This document shows, piece after piece, positions 24,815-64,000 of a stretch of DNA of 64,000 bases (within the stretch, counting starts at the first letter, position 1; every line of letters begins with the position of its first letter). Source of the DNA: Elsinoe ampelina (taxonomy: Eukaryota). Both the position numbers and the translations under genes were made by a program. Below the pieces are notes generated by a model. That model was given only the letters and a program-made list of their open reading frames with translations. It was not told where the DNA came from and did not search any database. Location of the stretch: contig ML992504.1 of assembly GCA_010093995.1 (NCBI GenBank), forward strand, positions 310,001 to 374,000, read 5' to 3'.

Positions 24815-25820
24815 CTCGAGGTCTTCACAGCACGTGCACAGTGTTGCGATCACAAAAAGGTGAACTTAAGCATCAACTTTTCGAGGTCGCGAGTCAGCCA
24901 ACGCTCGGCCGAAGATTCACCGAGCGATGCATAAACCCTTCAGAAAATTTCCAGCTTCATCTCTTTTCTATCACAGATCTGTGGTCCAGTGTTTTTTGGC
25001 CTTCACGGGCTCAGAAGACACTGCACCAGCCCGGCATTTGGAGCCTTTCATTCTCCACCATGAGATACCTCCCGTCGACAGATCTACGAAGGACCACCTC
25101 TTGCACTGGGATTATCCAGGGCAGTCTCCGTTCTTGTTTGAGTCGGATCTTTCACATCTCACCGTCCCACCGCCACCGAGAACGCCTAAAAGAATTCCTA
25201 GAGTCTCTTCGTGAGACTCGGAACTGCTCGGTGGACGCGGGCGGCAGAGGGGGAGTGACGATGAGAGGCGGAGATCTCTTGGGGGGTGGAAGCGTCATAT
25301 TCCTAGGCGTTCCCTAGACTCTGTGTCTATAAGGGTTGGGCAAAACCATGTCGCTTACATACAATCATTTCCTTGCTGTGGTCCTGAGGCAGATCCTTCC
25401 GCGTAAAAGTGTCCAACCAACGTCTGCTTTCTACACTGTGCCAGGCATCAAGCAACACCAAGGGTGCCAATTTCCTACCATCGATTCACGATCAGGTCAC
25501 CGCTTCAAGAAGTCCTGCCTGATTTCAATCAATCTGCACGACGCTTGTACAGTCTTGACGTCTTTGCTATTGGTCTTGTGCTGTACGCCGACCAATACCA
25601 GGCCGCCAAGCGATACGCGTGAAAGCGGGACCGCTACTTTCATTCAGTTGTGGACAGGTACCTTTGCTTCCTCAACTACTATATGCGAATCTTCAACCGG
25701 CAGTTGGATGTAGATGCCTACTCGGTATTTGCCAATGGTGAACATTTAAAAATGTGGTCGGTGCCACATATACCTCGATGTAGGTACAAGGATCAACGAC
25801 CAGAATCTCATCTTATCACA

Positions 25821-45985: not shown

Positions 45986-46664
45986 ATGATGACGACATGC
46001 AAGAGACGTGCCCGGTTAAGATCAATGACAATCATTCGGCTCACAAAGGGGTGGAAGTTGAGTGGGGAGATGAAGTAGTTTGAAGGCTTTGAATAGATCG
46101 CACAAAGTCCGAGTCAATTGCTGTCTCTGCCAACTAAATGTTCAACATGTCCATCCTGCCCAGTGACATCATCATTGAGTTTCATCTACTCTACCTTACT
46201 CCACTGCTTAACAAGCTTGACGGCGTCTCTTGACCTACAAGAGAACCTAAAGCAGTGACCGCCTCTAGCCAGTCTTGTCTTGTGAGCTTTGCCTCGATGA
46301 GAGCCGTCTCCTCTGCCAGACATGTTGTTCGCCTGACTCGCCCTCTGTTGAACCTATCATGACCCACCAATAGATAACTCCAGACCACAGCCTCTGGCGC
46401 GGTCACACCCCTTCTTGTCTTTCTGACAGTTGAGGCACTTTGGCCTCAAACACCACCTCCCGCACCGACCATAGGTGTGGGCTACGAATGGCGATACTTG
46501 GACATAGACTGATTGGATCCGGACCAAGAGTGTAAGGTCGGTGATTTGTATGGGACTTTCCACTGTTCCAGGTCCATGATTCCTCTATTCACAGTCCAAG
46601 TCCATGAGTGGTTCTTAGCCTGTGCTCCCTCTTCCCATGCCGTGAAACCTCCGACTTCGCCCAC

Positions 46665-47075
46665 TCAATTGTTGTACCCCACTCCCCATGCCATCGTCGC
46701 GGTAGACTGACTACCACCCGCCCCTGCCGGCGTGGTAGAACAGGAAGAAGGATGCCCCTGTGTCTCTGTCGTGGTCGAGACGACCAAAGCAGTGACGGTG
46801 GCGGGAGAGGAGGCAGTGGTTGTGGTGGGCATGGTGTAATGAGTGATGGAGCCCAGAGGAGTACATCGGAGGGGGGAGTAGTGCCTCCTCACTTGTTGTA
46901 CCCCACTCCCCATGCCATCGTCGCGGTAGACTGACTACCGCCCGCCCCTGCCGGCGTGGTAGAACAGGAGGGAGGATGCCCCTGTCCCGACGTGGTGGTA
47001 GAGGCATCCGGGGCAGCGACGATGGCGGGAGAGGAGGTGGTGGTCGTGGTGGGCATGGTGTAATGGATGATGGGA
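46665..47075. repeat. Two-copy 224-bp-period tandem duplication; each copy carries a 55-aa minus-strand ORF
   Basis: TTGTTGTACCCCACTCCCCATGCCATCGTCGCGGTAGACTGACTACC at 46669 and 46893; ORFs 46665-46832 and 46889-47056. Confidence 0.9.
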
Positions 47076-55878: not shown

Positions 55879-56307
55879 CTACGCCTCCCTCCGCACACCG
55901 AACGACATGCCCCTTGACGAACCCCTCCAGACCCCCCTCGCACCACCCCTCGGCACCCCTCTCGCACCACCCCTCGGCACCCCCCTCGCTCCTCCCCTCG
56001 GTACCCCCCTGGTCGCTCCCCCAGGCATCCCCCTCAGCCCACCACGCGCCGCCGCCCTCGCCCTCCTCTCCAGGTACTCCTCCGTCCTCCTCACGGGTTC
56101 TCCCCCATCCTCCGCCTTGGTATCCGCCGTGAACCTCACCCTCTTGGGCGGTCCACCCCTCCCCCTCACCCTCAGCCCACCCCTCGCCTCACCCCCGGCC
56201 CCCTGCACCGCCTTCTCCCTCGCCTCCCCCTTCCCCGACAGCTTCTTCCACCACCTCTTCGCCGCCGCCACCCCTCTCTCAACCGCTCTCTTCATCTCCG
56301 CCTGCAT
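55879..56307 (-). CDS. Orphan basic 142-aa protein with KRVRF motif and RGGARGVP repeats (24-bp tandem repeat ~55930-56040)
   Basis: ATG in AAG ATG context with upstream TATTTAAA; GC-rich open frame; no recognised family. Confidence 0.4.
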   Translation of the reverse strand: MQAEMKRAVERGVAAAKRWWKKLSGKGEAREKAVQGAGGEARGGLRVRGRGGPPKRVRFTADTKAEDGGEPVRRTEEYLERRARAAARGGLRGMPGGATRGVPRGGARGVPRGGARGVPRGGARGVWRGSSRGMSFGVRREA

Positions 56308-58704
56308 CTTGGTTGTTTGTATGTGTGTGGTGAGAGCTGTGGCAGTGGTCAGTAAGTGTTTAAATACACAGGCGAAGGTGCTGGGGTAGCCGCAAAGCGA
56401 CCGTCGCAGCGAGCTGCAGCGGAAGCTATTGAGCAACCTGCAGGGTGAGAGGCGATACTTACAGGCGTGGTGAGGTGGTGGGTTGGTTGAGGAGAAAGCG
56501 CTTTGTGAGGAATTGGCGAAGCTGGATAACTTCACCTGAGGCGGAGCCGCCTCCTCACTGGGTGGCTGGCCAATGAGCTCTTGGCACTACTTCACTTTGG
56601 GCAGGGCACAGAGCATTTCTTGCACTTCTGCGCTGGCAGACTTCATGCGGCATAGTGCAGGACGAGTCCTCAACCCTTCCGGCAGATGTGATTGTACAGC
56701 CAATGTAGGTTTGGTCATTAGCTGTGGCGTGTTTACCGTCAGCAAAGTAATGGGATTGCTATCACGAGTGCTGTCTACACAATGGACGGAAGCTGGCGAA
56801 CATCCATGGTCGAGAACGGCAGCGCGGACACGTCTTGGAAAGCGCAGCGATGTTGTAGCACCGGGCGGATTGTGAGGGCTGCCGTTGTCGACCATTTTTT
56901 GGCCTGGCCCAGAGGTATGGCTCTCAGCGCGATGCCTCATGATGTCTATTTCTCGACTCTGCTGTCTTGCGTTTTGCATGTTGGCAGCTCCGAAGACCGT
57001 TACTCGATTCATATGGGCATCAGCTTTTAGCATATCTTTGCACATAGAAGCATTGTCGTAACTGGTAAGGAGTCGCTGCCAACAATGCCTCTGGAAGCAG
57101 CACATACACATGACACGAGCTGCACTATCATGACCGTCAATTGTGTGAAGTGGACACATTGATGTCAACTGTCGAGACTCTCGACTCGATTGATTGCAAA
57201 GCGTCTATCTACAATGTACCACCTGACTACTGGTCCCTCATGCTTCTCTGCGAGGAACCAACCTTTGATCAGCTGGCGCCGCCCACTGCTGTTTGTAGCA
57301 GTGGACTTTGATCTTGGACTTGTATGCATGCCGAACAGCCATGGGATAGAGCTGGGGCACTTGACCCTGACCAGCCGAAGAGGTCGTCGAGGCGGGCGAG
57401 ACTTGGTCCGTTATGATGAGATACCCATCATTTCATGCGGTAAAAGGAGACCCAGGCGCTGCTTACCTGTTCATCGCTCCTTACAGCGAGCAGATCACGG
57501 AAAGGATGGCAAAAGCGCACACATGCAAAGATGAAAAGATGTACAACTGCTTCGAGCACCAAGCCTTGTCCTGAACGCTTGATGCAAGTGTAGCAGTGGC
57601 AACCGCGGACGCCTGGCTTGTTCAGGCACAGGCACGCTTTGATCTTGGGTCCTTGGCCGCTGGGATATCATCCTCCTCTGACAAGTCAGCGAGTCAATCC
57701 AGGATAGCTTCGGTCCCGTGGCGGCGACAAGCCGAAAGGTGACTCTTATCTTGACTGTCGAGAAAGGTGAAAAGGGATGAGTTGCAAGACACTCGACCAG
57801 TACTCAGCTGGCCAACACCGATACCGGTCGGACAAACACACACGTCACAGTCACAATGCACGAAGGAGATGACACAAGAATTTGTCTCGAGTATGTTCTA
57901 GCACTGTCGTGAGCAAGTCTCAACAACGCTTTCAGTAGCCCGAGTCAAGAAAGATTGCTCTCGGGCACGCCTCCGACGCCATCAGCTATGAAGAAGCCGA
58001 GACGTGCTCACGACCCGCCCAGCCCGTGAAGGCGGATGAGACCGTGTGGAGTGCATGCCCTTTGGGATAAGTACAAGATTGCATGTTGAGGGTACCGGCT
58101 TGCATGGCCGACTGAACGGACCTGAAGCGAATCGACAAGAGAAATGAAGACCAAACAAGAAAGCGAAACGACCTACCGAGTAAACTCACCGGCGAACTCA
58201 CGGGGAAACACCCCCAGACCCCGCTTGTCACGCACTCAATTGCACCGTTCAATGACCCGGACCACTAAATCTAGTCCGAGTCGGCCGAAGCGGTGGCGAA
58301 CATGGTTTTTGCTGTGGGGCGCGATTCAGGTTTGCAGCCATGGAATGTCTGTGCCTTATTCCGCCGCCCCGTGGCTGGTTCTCGCCGGTGTCGAAGGAGA
58401 ACGTCAAAGCCCTGCTTTGCCCTGGGAAAGAAGTCAGTAGGGAACTACCGCAGCACGGCATCCCGAAGCCCCCGCCCCATTGCATCTTGCCGGGACCAGG
58501 GCTCCGAGGTCATTGAGACGGATCTCGATCCTCGAAACCGCTGGCCGCTGTGGCGCTTGTGAAGGAGAACAGTGAGGTGGTGGTGAAGCCAGTGTTGGCT
58601 TGTTCTTGTTTGCTGGTACCTGTCTTTGAGGAAGGTCGGTGGAGCTCGGAGGGAAGTACTGGAACCGTCAGCATTCATTCTTGAACGGTGGAAGTGGTCG
58701 AGGT

Positions 58705-58845
58705 GAATGTATCCCGACGTCGGCCGAGCAGCTTTGAGGTCGGCACGCAGCCTGGCTGCCCAGTACACTGCCGGGACTGGTGTTTGATGTTGCCAGTGAC
58801 CAAAGCTCCACGACCGTGAGGCCGCTGAAACTCTGGCCAAGGGGC
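58705..58845 (-). ncRNA. Intronic box H/ACA-like RNA copy A
   Basis: H box ACATCA 58785-58790; hairpin 2 GTCCCGGC/GTCGGGAT; ACA 58708-58710. Confidence 0.7.
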
Positions 58846-58977
58846 GAGAGGTGAAGGGGAGGAAGAGAGTAGCGGCTTCCTTGACGATGAGAAACAGTTC
58901 GAAGGGCGAAAGGCGACAGTCTAAAGTCGAATTGGCTACACCTGAAGCCGTCAGCACTCATTCCATCCAGTGAGGTG

Positions 58978-59126
58978 CAATGTATCCCAGCATTTTATCC
59001 GAGCGGTGTTGAATTGGCACGAGGCCAGACCGCCCGAGACACAGCCGGGATTGGTTGATATTGCCTGACGGCCTGGGCTTCACAGAGTGGTACTCGAGCT
59101 GCGAAAACCCATGGAAACCGAGCGGC
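58978..59126 (-). ncRNA. Intronic box H/ACA-like RNA copy B
   Basis: H box ATATCA 59056-59061; ATCCCGGC/GCTGGGAT stem; ACA 58981-58983; GTAAGC donor. Confidence 0.78.
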
Positions 59127-59270
59127 GGGGGAAAAGTCGAAAGGGAAAGGACAGAACGAATGCTGCGGCTTACCTGAGGGGATCTTTGGCGAGTGAGTCG
59201 AGGCACTTGAGCCAGAGGGTTCGGGTTGAAAGATCTGAAGCCGTCAGCACTCATCCCATCCAATGAGGTG

Positions 59271-59423
59271 CAATGTATCCCAGCATCTTATCCGAGCGGT
59301 GGTGGATTGGCACGAGGCCAGACCGCTCAGTACACAGCCGGGATTGGTGTTTGATATTGCCTTAACGGCCTGGGCTCCACAGAGTGGTACTCGAGCTGTG
59401 GAAACCCATGGAAACCGAGCGGC
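59271..59423 (-). ncRNA. Intronic box H/ACA-like RNA copy C
   Basis: H box ATATCA 59352-59357; upper stem CTGAGCGGT/ACCGCTCGG ends 15 nt before ACA 59274-59276. Confidence 0.8.
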
Positions 59424-59569
59424 GGGGGAAAAGTCGGAAGGGGAGAGAACAGGACGAATGCTGCGGCTTACCTCGGTGAATGTTTGGCGGTTGAGTTGGA
59501 GCTGTTCGGTTGTGGGAGTTGAGTTGGGATATCTGAAGCCGTCAGCACTCTATTCCAACCGGTGTAGTG

Positions 59570-59708
59570 GAATGTATCCCAGCATCATCCCGAGCGGTGT
59601 TGGTGTGGCACGAAGCCAGACCGCTCAGTAACAGCTGGGACTGGTATTTGATGTTGCCCTTGAGAAACGCACCACAGCCATGAGGCTGCCGAGCACGAGA
59701 TCAAGGGC
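59570..59708 (-). ncRNA. Intronic box H/ACA-like RNA copy D
   Basis: Hairpin 1 GCCCTTGA/TCAAGGGC; H box ACATCA 59649-59654; upper stem ends 14 nt before ACA 59573-59575. Confidence 0.82.
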
Positions 59709-59851
59709 GGGGATGAGGGGGGTGACGGAAAGGGGAAGCAGAAGGTCTAGAGTGCTGCGGCTTACCTGAAGGATTGGTCGATGAAGGATGGTTGAGAGTT
59801 GGGTCGAAAATATCTGAAGCCGTCAGCACTCCATTCCAACTGGGTGCAGTG

Positions 59852-59991
59852 GAATGTATCCCAGCATCATCCCGAGCGGTGGTGATTTGGCACGAGGCCA
59901 GACCGCTCAGTAACAACTAGGACTGGTATTTGCTATTGCCTCGCGATTGAGTCCCCACAGCCATGAGGCTGCCGAGCGCAAGATCGCGGGC
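59852..59991 (-). ncRNA. Intronic box H/ACA-like RNA copy E
   Basis: Hairpin 1 CGCGAT/ATCGCG; H box ATAGCA 59931-59936; ACA 59855-59857. Confidence 0.8.
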
Positions 59992-60158
59992 GGGGATGAG
60001 GGGGGTGACGGAAAGGGGAAGCAGAAGGTCTAGAGTGCTGCGGCTTACCTTGAGGAGGGTTGACGAGTGGTGGTCGATGACGGGTTGGACGATGAAGTGT
60101 GGTCGAGCGTTGGGTCGAAAACATCTGAAGCCGTCAGCACTCGTCAATCTGGCGTGGT

Positions 60159-60294
60159 TGATGTATCCCAGCATCACCCGAGCAGCGTCGCGTTGGCACG
60201 AGGCCAGGCTACCCGGTACACAACTGGGACTTCGATCTTGCCCGGCGATCAGGGCTCCACAACCGTGAGGCTGCTGAAACCAAGACCAAGGGGC
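60159..60294 (-). ncRNA. Intronic box H/ACA-like RNA copy F (degenerate H box)
   Basis: Hinge shortened (AGATCG); hairpin 2 intact; ACA 60162-60164; donor ATAAGC. Confidence 0.65.
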
Positions 60295-60428
60295 GAGAAG
60301 GTGAGGGTGATTGAGAGTGCTGCAGCTTATTTGAGAGAGCTGACACTGATGGCGGCTATCCTGGATGGAAGGAGGAAGAGTCTGGGTCCTGTCAGCTTCA
60401 ATCGAAGTTGAGTCATGGTTGGATGGTG

Positions 60429-60566
60429 TGGTGTATCTCGACGTTACCCTCGCAGCCTATAGGTTGGCCCGAAGACCTGCTGTTTGAGACACTGCCGAGA
60501 CTGGTATTTGATCTTGCCCGGGCCGAAACTCCTCAGCCGTCAGGCTGGGAAGGCAGGACCAAGGGC
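60429..60566 (-). ncRNA. Intronic box H/ACA-like RNA copy G
   Basis: H box AGATCA 60509-60514; GTCTCGGC/GTCGAGAT; ACA 60432-60434; donor GTCGGT. Confidence 0.75.
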
Positions 60567-60684
60567 GTGTGATGCTTGGGGAAGGAAAAGGGATAGGACC
60601 GACCTTGAGGTTGACTTTGACTCTGAAAAGGGTAGGAAGACCTGGGTCCTGTCAGCTTCGTTCGAAGATGAGTCGTTGGTGTAT

Positions 60685-60821
60685 GGGTGTATCTCGACGT
60701 CTACCCTCACAGCATGGAAGTGGCACAAGGCCTGCTGATTGGAACACTGTCGAGACTGGTGTTTGATCTTGCCACGACCAAGACTCCTCAACCGTGGGGT
60801 TGAGAAGGCATGGTCAAGGGC
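60685..60821 (-). ncRNA. Intronic box H/ACA-like RNA copy H
   Basis: H box AGATCA 60764-60769; GTCTCGAC/GTCGAGAT; ACA 60688-60690; donor position CTCGGT. Confidence 0.72.
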
Positions 60822-60923
60822 GAAAGGGTTGGTGAGAGGAGGAACAAGACCGAGCTTGATGATGAATGATGGGGATGTATCTGGGTCCTGTCAGCTTTAT
60901 GCGAAGAAGAGTCTTGGATGATG

Positions 60924-61060
60924 GAATGTATCTCGGCTTTTACCCTCACAGCTTGGAAGTGGCACGAAGCCTGCTGCTGGGGACACTGCCGAGACTGGTG
61001 TTTGCTCTTGCCACGACCAGGACTCTCCAACCATGGGGCTGGAAAGGCAAGGCTAGGGGC
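60924..61060 (-). ncRNA. Intronic box H/ACA-like RNA copy I
   Basis: H box AGAGCA 61003-61008; GTCTCGGC/GCCGAGAT; ACA 60927-60929; donor GTCGGT. Confidence 0.75.
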
Positions 61061-61259
61061 GTGTTGTGGATGGAGGATGGGGGGACAGGACCGACCTTGA
61101 GTAGTTGACAAAGCACAATGTGGTGGGGTCATCTTCGACATCAGACTCTGGATCAACAACAACACTGGCTCATGTTAGTATAGGTAAGAAGGTGTGGGGA
61201 AGAGGGACTTATCTTGCAAAGGACCAGGAGCTCGAAGGTACCTTGCTAAGAGGTGAGAA

Positions 61260-61391
61260 GTATGTTGCACTGCTTTACTACCGCCGATGAGGAGGACTTT
61301 GTCTCATCGGCAGTCGATTGCAGAGCTTTTGATCTTGGCTGTTGCTGGTCACCATGAAGACATGGATGTCTTCTGATGAAAAGCTGGAGCC
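61260..61391 (-). ncRNA. Sequence-unrelated intronic box H/ACA-like RNA (J)
   Basis: Hairpin 1 with GAAGACAT/ATGTCTTC, H box AGATCA 61330-61335, hairpin 2 ACTGCCGATGAG/CTCATCGGCGGT ending 14 nt before ACA 61263-61265; within GTGAGC...TAG intron 61246-61427. Confidence 0.7.
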
Positions 61392-61993
61392 GGACTTGGT
61401 GTTGTGATGGGAGCAGGTGAGGCTCACAGGAGGTGAAGTGGTTGAGGAGGGGTAAGTTGGTGAGTTTTTCTGTTTGAGGTCAGTTGATGTCGTTGCTGTG
61501 GAGGGTAAGTCTACTTATCTTCTTCTTTTTGGTTATCTGAAAGCTTGGTTGTGATGTGCGATGGTGTTGTTGGAGTAGGTGGTGTTGGTCGAAGCTGGTG
61601 CGACCGGTGAGATGGAGGTTGAAGAGCTCTTAAAAGTTTCAAAAACCATCCAAAGGGTGATGAAAGCTGGTATAGAGCATTAGCTTTGCCAGTAGGAGCT
61701 TGGCTACTTACTTGAGGTTGTTGTTGAGTAAGATGTTGGCTGTTGTCTAAGGAGAAGTGAGGGGAGGGAGGCGGAGGTTGGAGTGAGCTTGCCGGTCGGC
61801 AGCGAGGTAAGTGAGAAGGTAAGAAATTGGCTCGGTGGCCTCTCGTGCATTTGAGTGTGCTAATGTACAGGCTGCTCTTCTGGGTATCTGTCATCGTCGC
61901 CGCCGGCTGAAGAGCGAGCGATAGTCAGTGGCGGTCGCGTGTGGTATGGGTAGAGGGTGAAGGGTCACTTACAGCTCGAGCTCGTCATTATCA

Positions 61994-62205
61994 TCAGCGA
62001 CGGTCAGCTCTCTTCTCCCTCCTCTCCATCATCTCCCACCATACTCTGACGATCATATCGATCGTCGCCGCCGCCCTTGCACCGACGAAATGACGGGCAC
62101 CAAGGCCCCGGAGGAGTGCGCGGATCTCTGCGAGTAAAAAGTCAGTTCGGGGTCTGCGATCACGCGATAATGATTGTAGAAAGACATACCACGCAGGTTG
62201 AACAT
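61994..62205 (-). CDS. Putative 49-aa spliced micro-ORF at the 5' end of the H/ACA host transcript
   Basis: MFNLR|EIRALLRGLGARHFVGARAAATIDMIVRVWWEMMERREKRADRR after removing GTATGT..ACTGAC..CAG intron 62128-62189; ends in four consecutive in-frame stops. Confidence 0.35.
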
Positions 62206-62479
62206 GGTTAGACCGTTGTGATGGTCTTTGATTGCTGTTTGGAAGCTTGGTTGCTTGTGGTGGTTGAGGTTTTGTGGTGATGGTAAGCATGAAGCTAGGG
62301 GGCAAAATTTGAAGCTTTATTCACTGTGCGCGGCTGACGAAAAGGGCCAACCGGAGCAGCAACAATAGGAAGCGAAAATGACTGGTCCTATGGCAACGGA
62401 TTAGGCATAGTCCATGCCGCCCAATCACTGCCCTGTTTTGGAGACTGATTTAGCTGCCTCCTCACGCGACAAAGTCTCC

Positions 62480-63290
62480 TTCTGCAAACACAACACACAT
62501 CACAGTAAGTCGATCAATGGATACTCCAATTGATTGATGAGCTCATCAGCTAACGCGTAGCGCTCAATAGACCATATCGAATCAATCACCGCCTCCTCCG
62601 CCGCCACCACCACCACGTAAGTACACATCTTCCCCTTCACCTCACCCATCGCCTCACCCATCACAATCTACACATCCTCCGCGTACTGCTACTCGTCTGA
62701 ATAGTACTGACGCAAGCTATAGATCCCCCTCTCCACCACCACCACCTCGTAAGTGCTCGTCTACGCCTTCTCTTCCCTCGTGTTTTTGCCCTCGGTGGCC
62801 CCAAACACACACCCCTCTTCAATGACCGTGAGAAAGTACTGACATGTTCTCTAGACCTCCTTCCTCTCCTCCTCCACCTCGTAAGTCTCAATCCGGCCCT
62901 CGACATACTCACCACCATTATCCTCCTTCTACCACATCGCCATCGCCCAAGCACAGCGCTGACCATACCATCAGACCTCCTTCGCCATCAAAGATGGCAG
63001 ACAAAGGCTTCAATGAAGCCATAAAGGTGCACATGATGCGGTTAGTGCTCAGTATAGTATCGACGGAGACGCCAATAATGCTGACAATGACATAGCCACA
63101 TGAGCTGCAAGGTCTGGGCCCAGATGCCCGGACGCAAAGCGTTTGTCGCGGTGGTCGATCCACCAAAGAAGTTTACGCCGCCCCCTCCGTTCCCTCCTCC
63201 CAGGTACGACCTGAAGGAAAAGTGGGTGGAGGCATTGATCTGGAGCGGATGGTACGGACAGGGGTAGACGGGGGACAAGGAGCCTGGTAG
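62480..63290 (+). other. Divergent multi-intron transcript with micro-exons (lncRNA or small-ORF gene)
   Basis: Four canonical GTAAGT..CTRAC..YAG introns: 62505-62560, 62617-62722, 62749-62854, 62881-62974. Confidence 0.6.
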
Positions 63291-63621
63291 TTTTTTCAAG
63301 GTCATGTACTACCAGATGACAACCGGCGGACATCAGAAGCTTGCGGCAGAAGAAGCCAGCAGAAGCCAGCAACAAACATCAAAGCAAATGAAGTAACTTT
63401 GCCTTTCTCCCCACAATCAATTGTCCATGTCTTGCCCCTCGTGCGGCTCTGTAGCACAGGGCTTGGCGTCTGTGGTCCCTCCCGCAATCGTGCAATCTCT
63501 GGGGATACATTCCGCTTTCCGCTCACCGACTTCGCGGCTTCCTCACTCATTTTTGTGCAAGAACCCTCCGCTCTCGGAGTCGTTGAGTCGGAGCATTGGC
63601 GACCCTGGAAGCAAGGTCAAA

Positions 63622-64000
63622 ATGTCATGGCCTGCGACACCTGTCCAAGGTCTACCTCAGCAATCGCCTCTACAAAGTCCACAGACGGCGAGTATTCCGC
63701 GCAAGCGCAAAAAGTCGAATGACGTCGAAGACCAGAGCGATGAGGGGGAACACGGGTCTGGTCAGAGGGGTCGCAATCAAGGCGTGAAGAGAGCCTGTAA
63801 TGAATGCAGACAGCAGAAGGTATGGTCAATATGGGGCTAACACGCGCATGGAGGCTGACTCTTTTCATAGTTGCGATGCGACGTGCAGACCGAACCTGTC
63901 TACCAACCCTGTAAACGATGCATGAAGCACAAGCTGCACTGTGCGATTGACCCCGGCTTCAAGAGACAAGAAAAGCGCCAACAATATGCGGAACTTGAGA
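63622..64000 (+). CDS. Zn2Cys6 transcription factor, Leu3/LeuB-like N-terminus (intron 63820-63870; continues beyond window)
   Basis: VKRACNECRQQK|LRCDV....PCKRCMKHKLHCAIDPGFKR.EKR. Confidence 0.88.

What the first reader, a model, noticed from the sequence alone, without database searches (positions are those of the whole stretch)
58711..60995. Conserved scaffold with a hypervariable guide pocket: possible diversified RNA-guide repertoire
Seen: in hairpin 2 the stems and apical GGC-N5-GCC element are largely conserved, but the pocket strands (5'/3') differ: A AGTGTA/CCGAC, B TGTGT/ATAAAAT, C TGTGTA/ATAAGAT, D and E TGTTA/GATGAT, F TGTGTA/GTGAT, G AGTGT/GGTAAC, H AGTGT/GGTAGAC, I AGTGT/GGTAAAA. 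Established: canonical rRNA guides usually show the opposite pattern (conserved pockets, drifting stems). Predicted targets have the form AUCAUC-UN-UAACA, AUCUUAU-UN-UACACA, GUUACC-UN-ACACU. I could not match these to rRNA or snRNA from memory, except a partial 8-nt complement of copy I to LSU UUUUACCC. Inference: orphan guides with different targets (mRNA, TE or viral RNA), or a non-guide function.
Basis: partly seen in the sequence, partly recalled or inferred. Interest (0 to 1): 0.78.

Follow-up and report, generated by a model that had tools for sequence, protein, structure and literature searches.

The report
Tandem intronic H/ACA snoRNA array
Nine tandem copies of a two-hairpin H/ACA-type small nucleolar RNA sit inside intron-like units of an apparently non-coding fungal gene, and only one strand of their guide pocket has drifted, so the claimed hypervariable guide repertoire is only partly borne out.

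Summary
The RNA lies on the minus strand. Nine units (A-I, 58705-61064) each fold into hairpin-hinge-hairpin-tail with an H box, an ACA box and a pocket 13-15 nt from ACA. Covariation supports the fold: 94% of cells pair against 26-45% in slid controls, and 14 pairs carry compensatory changes against 2-4. Each RNA sits in a GT...CTGAC...CAG intron-like segment between short, unconserved exons. The first ~20 nt of each segment pair with its last ~22 nt.

"Hypervariable" overstates them. The 5' pocket strand is as conserved as the stems (0.67 parsimony steps per column). Only the 3' strand varies (1.83), and that is below the flanks (2.35-2.79).

No rRNA target was found. Pocket complementarity to proxy fungal rRNA did not exceed shuffles, and exact canonical targets had 0 hits in 106 fungal rDNA loci. 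The organism's own rRNA, snRNAs and transcriptome were not available. No Rfam family matched, no homologue appeared in metagenomes, and there is no expression evidence.

Verdict: a real, lineage-specific H/ACA-class intronic array. Its targets are unknown, and a diversified guide repertoire is possible but not shown.

The parts
58705..58848 (-). Unit A, H/ACA-like RNA. H box ACATCA, ACA box, pocket AGTGTA/CCGAC, 13 nt from pocket top to ACA. The homologous 5' splice position reads GGAAGC, with no GT.
   Evidence: Covariance-model hit of 136.4 bits; fold z-score -3.98; geometry; splice position
58978..59129 (-). Unit B. H box ATATCA with a 3-nt hinge deletion. Pocket TGTGT(C)/ATAAAAT, 15 nt to ACA.
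   Evidence: 110.9 bits; z -3.59
59271..59426 (-). Unit C. H box ATATCA. Pocket TGTGTA/ATAAGAT, 15 nt to ACA.
   Evidence: 119 bits
59570..59712 (-). Unit D. H box ACATCA. Pocket TGTTA/GATGAT is open in the minimum-energy fold, 14 nt to ACA.
   Evidence: 138.9 bits; z -5.77
59852..59995 (-). Unit E. H box ATAGCA. Same pocket as D. Two C-to-T changes in the lower stem are kept as G-U pairs.
   Evidence: 132.5 bits; z -3.87
60159..60297 (-). Unit F. The H-box position reads AGATCG (last A lost), the hinge has a 5-nt deletion, and the 5' splice position reads AATAAG. Probably decaying. Pocket TGTGTA/GTGAT, 13 nt to ACA.
   Evidence: 128.4 bits
60429..60570 (-). Unit G. H box AGATCA. Pocket AGTGT/GGTAAC, 14 nt to ACA.
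   Evidence: 114.9 bits; z -1.77
60685..60825 (-). Unit H. H box AGATCA. Pocket AGTGT/GGTAGAC, 15 nt to ACA. The homologous 5' splice position reads CTCGGT, with no GT.
   Evidence: 132.4 bits; z -4.03
60924..61064 (-). Unit I. H box AGAGCA. Pocket AGTGT/GGTAAAA, 15 nt to ACA.
   Evidence: 128.1 bits; z -3.74
58942..61095 (-). Six intron-like segments with GT at the homologous 5' site and CTGAC plus CAG at the 3' end: B 58942-59173, C 59235-59471, D 59533-59765, E 59814-60048, G 60382-60603, I 60881-61095 (215-237 nt). The exons between them, where both borders are intact, are 48-76 nt.
   Evidence: Motif scan; alignment. The branch-to-3' splice site block has identity 0.83 and the 5' splice site block 0.55, against 0.19 for exons
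59533..59765 (-). Example of the terminal helix, in unit D. Intron bases +1 to +19 pair with the last ~21 bases. The A of CTGAC is the only bulged base.
   Evidence: RNAduplex energies are -24.3 to -30.2 kcal/mol in B-F, -12.8 to -17.8 in G-I and -10.6 in A. Shuffled 5' segments reach the observed value in 0/300 (C), 0/300 (D) and 1/300 (I) trials. Non-cognate pairs between the classes give -5.5 to -17.8
58422..62189 (-). Putative extent of the multi-intron, apparently non-coding host transcript. Further GT...CTRAC...YAG segments without an embedded RNA lie at 62189-62128, 61972-61907, 61711-61667, 61241-61165 and 58619-58422.
   Evidence: Motif scan. No convincing ORF in 61100-64000 on the minus strand. 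The longest ATG ORF in two hypothetical spliced products is 128-189 aa of low complexity. No transcript evidence.

Best explanation
This is a lineage-specific, tandemly duplicated family of nine H/ACA-class small nucleolar RNA genes on the minus strand. Each is embedded in an intron-like segment of a multi-exon, apparently non-coding host transcript in an ascomycete fungus.

Shown: each copy folds as hairpin-hinge-hairpin-tail. The H box sits 1 nt after hairpin 1 and ACA sits directly after hairpin 2. Hairpin 2 has a single internal-loop pocket, 5-6 nt on the 5' side and 5-7 nt on the 3' side, with its top 13-15 nt from ACA. The RNA bodies and the splice-like signals are conserved, while exons and intron spacers have diverged to near-random.

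Inferred: the host transcript is spliced or cleaved at the terminal helix, and exonucleases trim each piece to a ~140-nt snoRNP of Cbf5, Nop10, Gar1 and Nhp2. Hairpin 2 then acts as a single pseudouridylation guide. Hairpin 1 has only 2-4-nt internal loops in most copies and is probably structural.

After duplication the 5' guide strand stayed constrained ((A/U)GUGU). The 3' guide strand drifted into about five versions: A; B and C; D, E and F; G; H and I. Some copies (F, probably A and H) are decaying. The substrates are not in the conserved rRNA core as far as proxies can show. Whether they are lineage-specific rRNA or snRNA sites, other RNAs, or none at all is open.
For: Structure: the RNAalifold consensus has 37 pairs, 13 of them compensatory. 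In the count of structure pairs, 94.2% of cells pair against 26-45% when partners are slid, 14 pairs change on both sides against 2-4, and 0 of 500 shuffles reach the observed values. Seven of the 8 single folds run have z-scores of -3.06 or lower, and all 8 give the two-hairpin shape (unit C was not run because it exceeds the length limit).

Boxes and geometry: the H box is ANANNA in 8 of 9 units, ACA is present in 9 of 9, and the pocket top is 13-15 nt from ACA.

Selection: identity of RNA plus signals against flanks is 0.94 vs 0.72 (B-C), 0.82 vs 0.57 (H-I) and 0.76 vs 0.50-0.56 (A-F, C-D, G-H). Region table, parsimony.

Intron signals: GT at the homologous site in 6 of 9 units, and CTGAC followed by CAG in 9 of 9.

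Uniqueness: the pattern matches 7 of 9 units against 0 expected, and the covariance model finds only these 9 in the window. Neighbouring genes place the window in Ascomycota.
Against: No Rfam family matches the region even at E<=10. No bipartite complementarity to proxy rRNA exceeds shuffles, for hairpin 2 (19-53 of 60 shuffles reach the observed score) or hairpin 1 (5-60 of 60). Exact canonical targets have 0 hits.

There is no evidence of transcription, splicing or RNA ends. Only contigs could be laid and they showed no joints. No homologue turned up outside this genome (0 metagenome matches).

Three of nine units lack GT at the homologous 5' site. The terminal helix would bury the 5' splice site and branch site, which sits awkwardly with simple splicing. 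In Neurospora crassa, H/ACA genes are mostly independent singletons (PMC2780460, passages).
Confidence: 0.68

Rival explanations
1. This is the first reader's view: a diversified guide repertoire. On this view the subfamilies are functional orphan H/ACA guides that acquired different substrates (mRNA, ncRNA, TE or viral RNA) through changes in the 3' pocket strand. They would share the 3' half-site read by the conserved 5' strand.
For: The 3' strands fall into about five versions that one target cannot satisfy even with wobble (alignment). Pocket size and spacing are kept in all 9 copies. The 5' strand is strongly conserved (0.67 steps per column), so the pocket is not simply decaying. B and C differ at 1 of 7 positions in the 3' strand while their flanks are only 72% identical. 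No rRNA target was found.
Against: The 3' strand changes no faster than neutral flanks (1.83 vs 2.35-2.79 steps per column), so there is no sign of diversifying selection. No candidate target of any kind was found, including within the 64 kb window at up to 1 mismatch. Several copies carry damaged signals. There are no orthologues to show that each version is kept.
Confidence: 0.2
2. These are ordinary rRNA or snRNA guides whose targets I missed. One or a few copies would guide canonical or lineage-specific pseudouridines in this organism's own rRNA, snRNAs or pre-rRNA spacers, and the other copies would be redundant or decaying duplicates.
For: My rRNA references were proxies. They were one metagenomic fungal SSU-5.8S-LSU 5' part, yeast-like LSU pieces found as contaminants in prokaryote assemblies, and a protist stretch for one gap. 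No snRNA, ETS or ITS sequence of the species was available. Short pockets with wobble give noisy predictions, with null scores as high as the observed ones. Signal loss in A, F and H fits redundancy.
Against: Exact canonical targets are absent from 106 diverse fungal SSU/ITS/5.8S/LSU-5' loci and from 74 other rDNA pieces. Most known guide targets lie in conserved core rRNA, which the proxies cover. No Rfam H/ACA family matched.
Confidence: 0.25
3. This is a structured repeat without guide function. The units would be panhandle introns or a tandem genomic repeat whose hairpins serve another role, such as processing, regulation of the host transcript or small-RNA production, or no role. The H/ACA likeness would be coincidental.
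For: A strong helix joins the ends of each unit (-24 to -30 kcal/mol in B-F). There is no expression evidence, no database family, no target, and no homologues.
Against: H box, ACA box, two hairpins and 13-15-nt pocket spacing all coincide in 8-9 of 9 copies. Compensatory changes occur specifically in the stems. The RNA body is conserved against diverged flanks. A neutral repeat would not behave this way.
Confidence: 0.08

Closest known systems
Eukaryotic box H/ACA pseudouridylation guide snoRNAs, single-guide type with the guide in hairpin 2
   Same: Hairpin-hinge-hairpin-tail shape, ANANNA in the hinge, ACA after hairpin 2, and an internal-loop pocket 13-15 nt from ACA. 'The fungal snoRNAome' (PMC5824354, passages) describes single-guide, double-guide and orphan H/ACA families, and says 7 of 15 orphan H/ACA snoRNAs are conserved only at genus or species level.
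   Different: No Rfam family matched and no target was found. There are nine tandem paralogues rather than a singleton, and the two pocket strands evolve at very different rates.
UHG/GAS5-like non-coding snoRNA host genes with one snoRNA per intron, such as Neurospora crassa clusters I-V
   Same: A series of short exons with little coding potential, each intron carrying one snoRNA, with canonical splice signals around every snoRNA (PMC2780460, passages; here).
   Different: Per that paper, the N. crassa clusters hold only box C/D snoRNAs of different families, and 16 of its 20 H/ACA genes are intergenic. Most of its snoRNA genes are singletons (section 11). Here all nine are H/ACA paralogues and the exon-intron unit itself is the repeat.
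Mammalian tandem orphan snoRNA arrays (SNORD115/116, SNORD113/114)
   Same: As I recall, these are repeated units of one intron-encoded orphan snoRNA plus a short non-coding exon, in many diverged copies with no rRNA target. The orphan status of SNORD116 and SNORD113/114 also appears in the abstract of PMC12724518 (search listing).
   Different: Those are box C/D RNAs in mammals, imprinted and brain-expressed. Here the RNAs are H/ACA-type in a fungus. Expression is unknown and orphan status is only provisional.
snR30/U17, a non-guide H/ACA snoRNA that uses the hairpin-2 internal loop to bind 18S rRNA
   Same: An H/ACA scaffold in which the 3'-hairpin internal loop could act by base-pairing without modifying the target.
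   Different: The defining loop motifs m1 AUAUUCCUA and m2 AAACCAU (PMC7601244, Table 1) are absent from all nine units.

Membership tests
Box H/ACA snoRNA | Hairpin-hinge-hairpin-tail secondary structure | tested here: met
   Consensus of 37 pairs. 94.2% of cells pair against 26-45% in slid controls. 14 compensatory pairs against 2-4. The 8 single folds run all give the same shape.
Box H/ACA snoRNA | H box (ANANNA) in the single-stranded hinge | tested here: met
   8 of 9 units have A-N-A-(G/T)-C-A 1 nt after hairpin 1. F reads AGATCG.
Box H/ACA snoRNA | ACA box 3 nt from the mature 3' end | tested here: inconclusive
   ACA follows the last pair of hairpin 2 directly in 9 of 9 units. The mature 3' end is unknown because no RNA reads were available.
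Box H/ACA snoRNA | Pseudouridylation pocket with its top about 14-16 nt from the box | tested here: met
   In hairpin 2 the distance is 13 (A, F), 14 (D, E, G) or 15 (B, C, H, I) nt. The strands are 5-6 and 5-7 nt long. Hairpin 1 has only small internal loops in most copies.
Box H/ACA snoRNA | Bipartite complementarity of the pocket to a uridine in rRNA or snRNA | tested here: inconclusive
   Best scores do not exceed shuffled proxy rRNA. Exact targets have 0 hits in 106 fungal rDNA loci and 74 other rDNA pieces. The species' own rRNA and snRNAs were not available.
Box H/ACA snoRNA | Accumulates as a stable RNP with Cbf5, Nop10, Gar1 and Nhp2 | not testable with these tools
   No RNA or protein-binding data.
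Any described Rfam H/ACA family | Covariance-model match | tested here: not met
   0 matches in 58300-61400 on both strands at E<=10.
Intron-encoded snoRNA in a non-coding host gene (UHG-like) | 5' splice site, branch site and 3' splice site flank each snoRNA, one snoRNA per intron | tested here: met
   CTGAC followed by CAG in 9 of 9 units. GT at the homologous 5' site in 6 of 9, lost in A, F and H.
Intron-encoded snoRNA in a non-coding host gene (UHG-like) | Spliced host transcript exists | not testable with these tools
   Only contigs could be laid and they showed no joints.
snR30/U17 | m1 and m2 motifs in the 3'-hairpin internal loop | tested here: not met
   ATATTCCT has 0 hits. AAACCAT has 0 hits inside the units and 1 outside at 58308. 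Motifs taken from PMC7601244 Table 1.

The most novel reading that the evidence does not exclude
This could be a fungal counterpart of the mammalian tandem orphan snoRNA arrays. On this reading, a repeated intron-exon host gene produces a family of H/ACA guides that share one half-site (the conserved 5' pocket strand) and have re-targeted the other half (the 3' strand) to different non-ribosomal RNAs. Each guide would be released from a panhandle intron whose end-to-end helix presents the branch adenosine as a bulge.
Probability: 0.15. Interest if true: 0.8.

Novelty: new variant of a known kind. Interest (0 to 1): 0.5.

Why it matters
In the filamentous fungus studied in most detail, H/ACA snoRNAs are reported as mostly independent singleton genes (PMC2780460). 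A nine-copy, intron-embedded H/ACA paralogue array with one constrained and one drifting guide strand would be an unusual natural case. It could show how guide RNAs duplicate, lose or switch targets. If the RNAs are expressed and truly orphan, the array gives a compact, deletable locus for asking what orphan H/ACA RNAs do. The end-to-end intron helix that bulges the predicted branch adenosine is a testable processing or splicing feature in its own right.

Tried and rejected
**Expression.** The look-up of sequencing runs listed no RNA holder. Read laying on 4 runs gave only contigs and no joints. Two low-depth runs of unknown library type hold only pieces over units F and G. This is not usable as evidence.

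**Whole genome.** None is held for this window.

**Homologues.**
- A three-part degenerate pattern that matches 7 of 9 units found 0 matches in metagenome contigs.
- Earlier findings of this scan: nothing by place or by sequence.

**rRNA references.**
- An LSU primer scan of viral contigs gave mostly chance hits. The six longer loci had no Rfam rRNA match, and 2 of the 11 loci looked like rDNA by their flanks.
- The same scan of prokaryote genome contigs gave contaminant eukaryotic rDNA. From it I took one full protist rDNA unit and yeast-like pieces.
- Attempts to extend metagenome records failed, so the fungal LSU 3' half rests on yeast-like pieces only.

**Target searches.**
- An unconstrained pocket search and a wobble regex search were too noisy.
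- Complementary 9-mers numbered 207 on the sense strand against 164 on the antisense control.
The rRNA bases that follow do not pair with copy I's 5' strand, and the position would be 17 nt from ACA. I rejected it as a canonical target.
- A 12-13-bp match of D/E (5' strand plus stem bases) to the LSU 5' region appeared in 18 loci. It needs upper- and lower-stem bases and only 4 bp on the other side, so I rejected it.

**Tenth unit.** A supposed degenerate unit at 58422-58619 scored 29 in local alignment against a shuffle maximum of 30, and gave no covariance-model hit. Rejected.

**Literature.** Two full-text searches listed no paper describing a tandem intronic H/ACA array in a fungus.
Full report
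**What is there**

The region 58.66-61.10 kb holds nine head-to-tail units of 239-311 nt. Read on the minus strand, their order is I to A. Each unit contains an RNA-like body of 139-156 nt.

- A covariance model built from the nine bodies finds exactly these nine places in the 64 kb window (110.9-138.9 bits) and nothing else at E<=10.
- A degenerate three-part pattern matches 7 of 9 units, with 0 expected in 100 shuffles.
- Neighbouring genes (a TRP-like channel, TauD, SART-1, a sulfatase, an ENTH-domain protein) and the protein-atlas taxa place the window in an ascomycete fungus.

**Structure**

The 8 bodies folded singly all form hairpin 1, a single-stranded hinge, hairpin 2 and a short tail. 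Their z-scores run from -1.77 to -5.77, and 7 of the 8 are -3.06 or lower.

- The alignment consensus has 37 pairs, 13 of them with compensatory changes.
- On that structure 94.2% of cells pair, against 26-45% when partners are slid by 1-3 columns.
- 14 pairs change on both sides, against 2-4 in the slid controls, and 0 of 500 shuffles reach the observed values.
- The lower stem of hairpin 2 is paired in 100% of cells. It carries CG-to-UA and GC-to-AU exchanges that separate the G-I copies from the A-F copies.

**H/ACA features**

- An ANANNA motif (A-N-A-G/T-C-A) lies 1 nt after hairpin 1 in 8 of 9 units. F reads AGATCG.
- ACA follows the last pair of hairpin 2 in 9 of 9 units.
- Hairpin 2 has an 8-bp lower stem, an internal loop of 5-6 nt (5' side) and 5-7 nt (3' side), an upper stem of up to 9 bp (4 bp in H and I), and a small conserved apical hairpin.
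- The top of the 3' loop strand lies 13-15 nt from ACA, which is the spacing expected of a pseudouridylation pocket.
- Hairpin 1 has only small internal loops in most copies, so the RNAs look like single-guide H/ACA RNAs.
- No Rfam family matches the region at E<=10.
- The snR30/U17 loop motifs (PMC7601244, Table 1) are absent.

**Context**

Each body lies in an intron-like segment. All nine units end in GCTGAC followed by 8-9 nt and CAG.

- Six have GT at the homologous 5' site: GTAAGC in B-E and GTCGGT in G and I.
- A, F and H have lost the GT.
- Each defective unit directly follows an intact one on the minus strand: I then H, G then F, B then A.
- The predicted introns are 215-237 nt, and the exons with intact borders are 48-76 nt.
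- Further short intron-like segments without an embedded RNA lie upstream, as far as about 62.19 kb.
- I saw no convincing protein-coding frame on the minus strand. The longest ORF in two hypothetical spliced products is 128-189 aa of low complexity.

This resembles the UHG-like non-coding snoRNA host genes described for Neurospora crassa. There, however, the clusters hold only box C/D RNAs, 16 of 20 H/ACA genes are intergenic, and most snoRNA genes are singletons (PMC2780460, passages and section 11).

**An unexpected extra: the terminal helix**

The first ~20 nt of each intron-like segment pair with its last ~22 nt.

| Units | RNAduplex energy (kcal/mol) |
|---|---|
| B-F | -24.3 to -30.2 |
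| G-I | -12.8 to -17.8 |
| A | -10.6 |

- Shuffled 5' segments reach the observed value in 0/300 (C), 0/300 (D) and 1/300 (I) trials.
- The two sequence classes use entirely different sequences for the helix. Between classes, pairings with a B-F 5' segment and a G-I 3' segment are clearly weaker (-9.3 to -17.6 against -24.3 to -30.2), but G-I 5' segments pair with some B-F 3' segments about as well as with their own (-8.0 to -17.8 against -12.8 to -17.8).
- B/C and D/E also differ by paired changes.
- In B-F the only bulged base is the A of CTGAC, the predicted branch adenosine.
- The helix covers intron positions +1 and +3 onward.

The helix could bring the splice sites together, or protect or define the excised piece. 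It could also be the entry site of a double-strand-specific nuclease that releases the RNA without splicing; from memory, such a route is known for some yeast intronic snoRNAs. I cannot tell which.

**The claim of a hypervariable pocket**

| Region | Mean pairwise identity | Fitch steps per column |
|---|---|---|
| 5' pocket strand | 0.73 | 0.67 |
| 3' pocket strand | 0.42 | 1.83 |
| Lower stem | 0.72 / 0.81 | 1.00 / 0.50 |
| Upper stem | 0.56 / 0.72 | 1.67 / 0.67 |
| Hinge | 0.76 | 0.57 |
| Hairpin 1 | 0.50 | 1.78 |
| 3' flank | 0.32 | 2.35 |
| Exons | 0.19 | 2.79 |

The 5' strand is among the most constrained parts. The 3' strand changes like hairpin 1 and more slowly than the spacers. That is relaxed constraint, not faster-than-neutral change.

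- Within young pairs the pocket is kept. D and E are identical in both strands. B and C differ at 1 of 7 positions in the 3' strand while their flanks are 72% identical.
- The RNA bodies as a whole are under constraint: identity of body plus signals against flanks is 0.94 vs 0.72 (B-C), 0.82 vs 0.57 (H-I) and 0.76 vs 0.50-0.56 (A-F, C-D, G-H). The recent pair D-E shows 0.88 vs 0.87.
- Aligned from the lower stem, the 3' strands of B/C, D/E/F, A, G and H/I cannot all pair with one sequence even with G-U wobble (my reading). If they are functional, they have more than one specificity.

**Targets**

The organism's own rRNA was not available. I used proxies:

- a complete protist rDNA unit;
- yeast-like LSU pieces present as contaminants in prokaryote assemblies;
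- 106 fungal SSU-ITS-5.8S-LSU 5' loci from metagenomes.

I ran a geometry-constrained search. It required the pocket top 13-17 nt from the box, 3 closing pairs above it, and at least 3 pairs on each side of the target uridine. The best hairpin-2 scores were 8.5-10.5. Between 19 and 53 of 60 shuffled references reached the observed score. Hairpin 1 gave 5-60 of 60.

Exact canonical targets had 0 hits in the 106 fungal loci, 0 in the 74 other rDNA pieces, and 0 in the window, including at up to 1 mismatch in the window.

It fails the bipartite geometry, and 9-mers are as common against the antisense control (207 against 164).

These tests cannot exclude sites in species-specific rRNA segments, spacers, snRNAs or other RNAs.

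**What could not be shown**

- There is no evidence of transcription, splicing or mature ends.
- No homologue was found elsewhere.
- Two literature searches listed no report of a tandem intronic H/ACA array in a fungus. These searches do not cover subscription journals.

**Verdict**

The feature is real and is best read as a lineage-specific tandem array of intron-embedded H/ACA-class snoRNA paralogues in a non-coding host gene. The conserved-scaffold half of the finding holds. The hypervariable-pocket half holds only for the 3' strand, and not beyond the neutral rate. The idea of a diversified orphan guide repertoire remains possible, at about 0.15-0.2. Drift among partly redundant copies, or targets missed in the organism's own RNAs, explain the data at least as well.

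Noticed in passing
window 58659-61095, minus strand, ends of each intron-like unit: The first ~20 nt of each unit pair with its last ~22 nt (-24 to -30 kcal/mol in B-F). The A of the CTGAC branch motif is the only bulged base. The G-I class keeps a helix with a wholly different sequence. The helix covers the 5' splice site and the branch site.
   Followed up: partly
window 58881, 60331, 60856 (homologous 5' splice positions of A, F, H): The three units without GT each follow an intact unit on the minus strand (B then A, G then F, I then H). Introns carrying two snoRNAs, or exon-retained copies, are therefore possible.
   Followed up: no
window 24958-25362 (+): The only Rfam match in the window at gathering threshold is Afu_309, an Aspergillus fumigatus sRNA family (51.3 bits, full model length). 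It is not related in sequence to the array.
   Followed up: no
window 60142-60584: Two low-depth public runs of unknown library type hold only short contigs over unit F with about 20 nt on each side, and over unit G with its 3' flank. They hold nothing else of the 3.3 kb laid. This could be low-level RNA or chance DNA coverage.
   Followed up: no
window 46664-47073 and 55931-56201: There is a 224-nt tandem repeat (1.8 copies, 87% matches), and C-rich 12/24/48-nt tandem repeats lie upstream of the array region.
   Followed up: no
L012-L066, L073 (prokaryote genome contigs): Many prokaryote assemblies and MAGs carry contaminant eukaryotic rDNA contigs. One MAG contig (G004:C107) holds more than one full protist rDNA repeat, with a period of about 8.4 kb.
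   Followed up: partly
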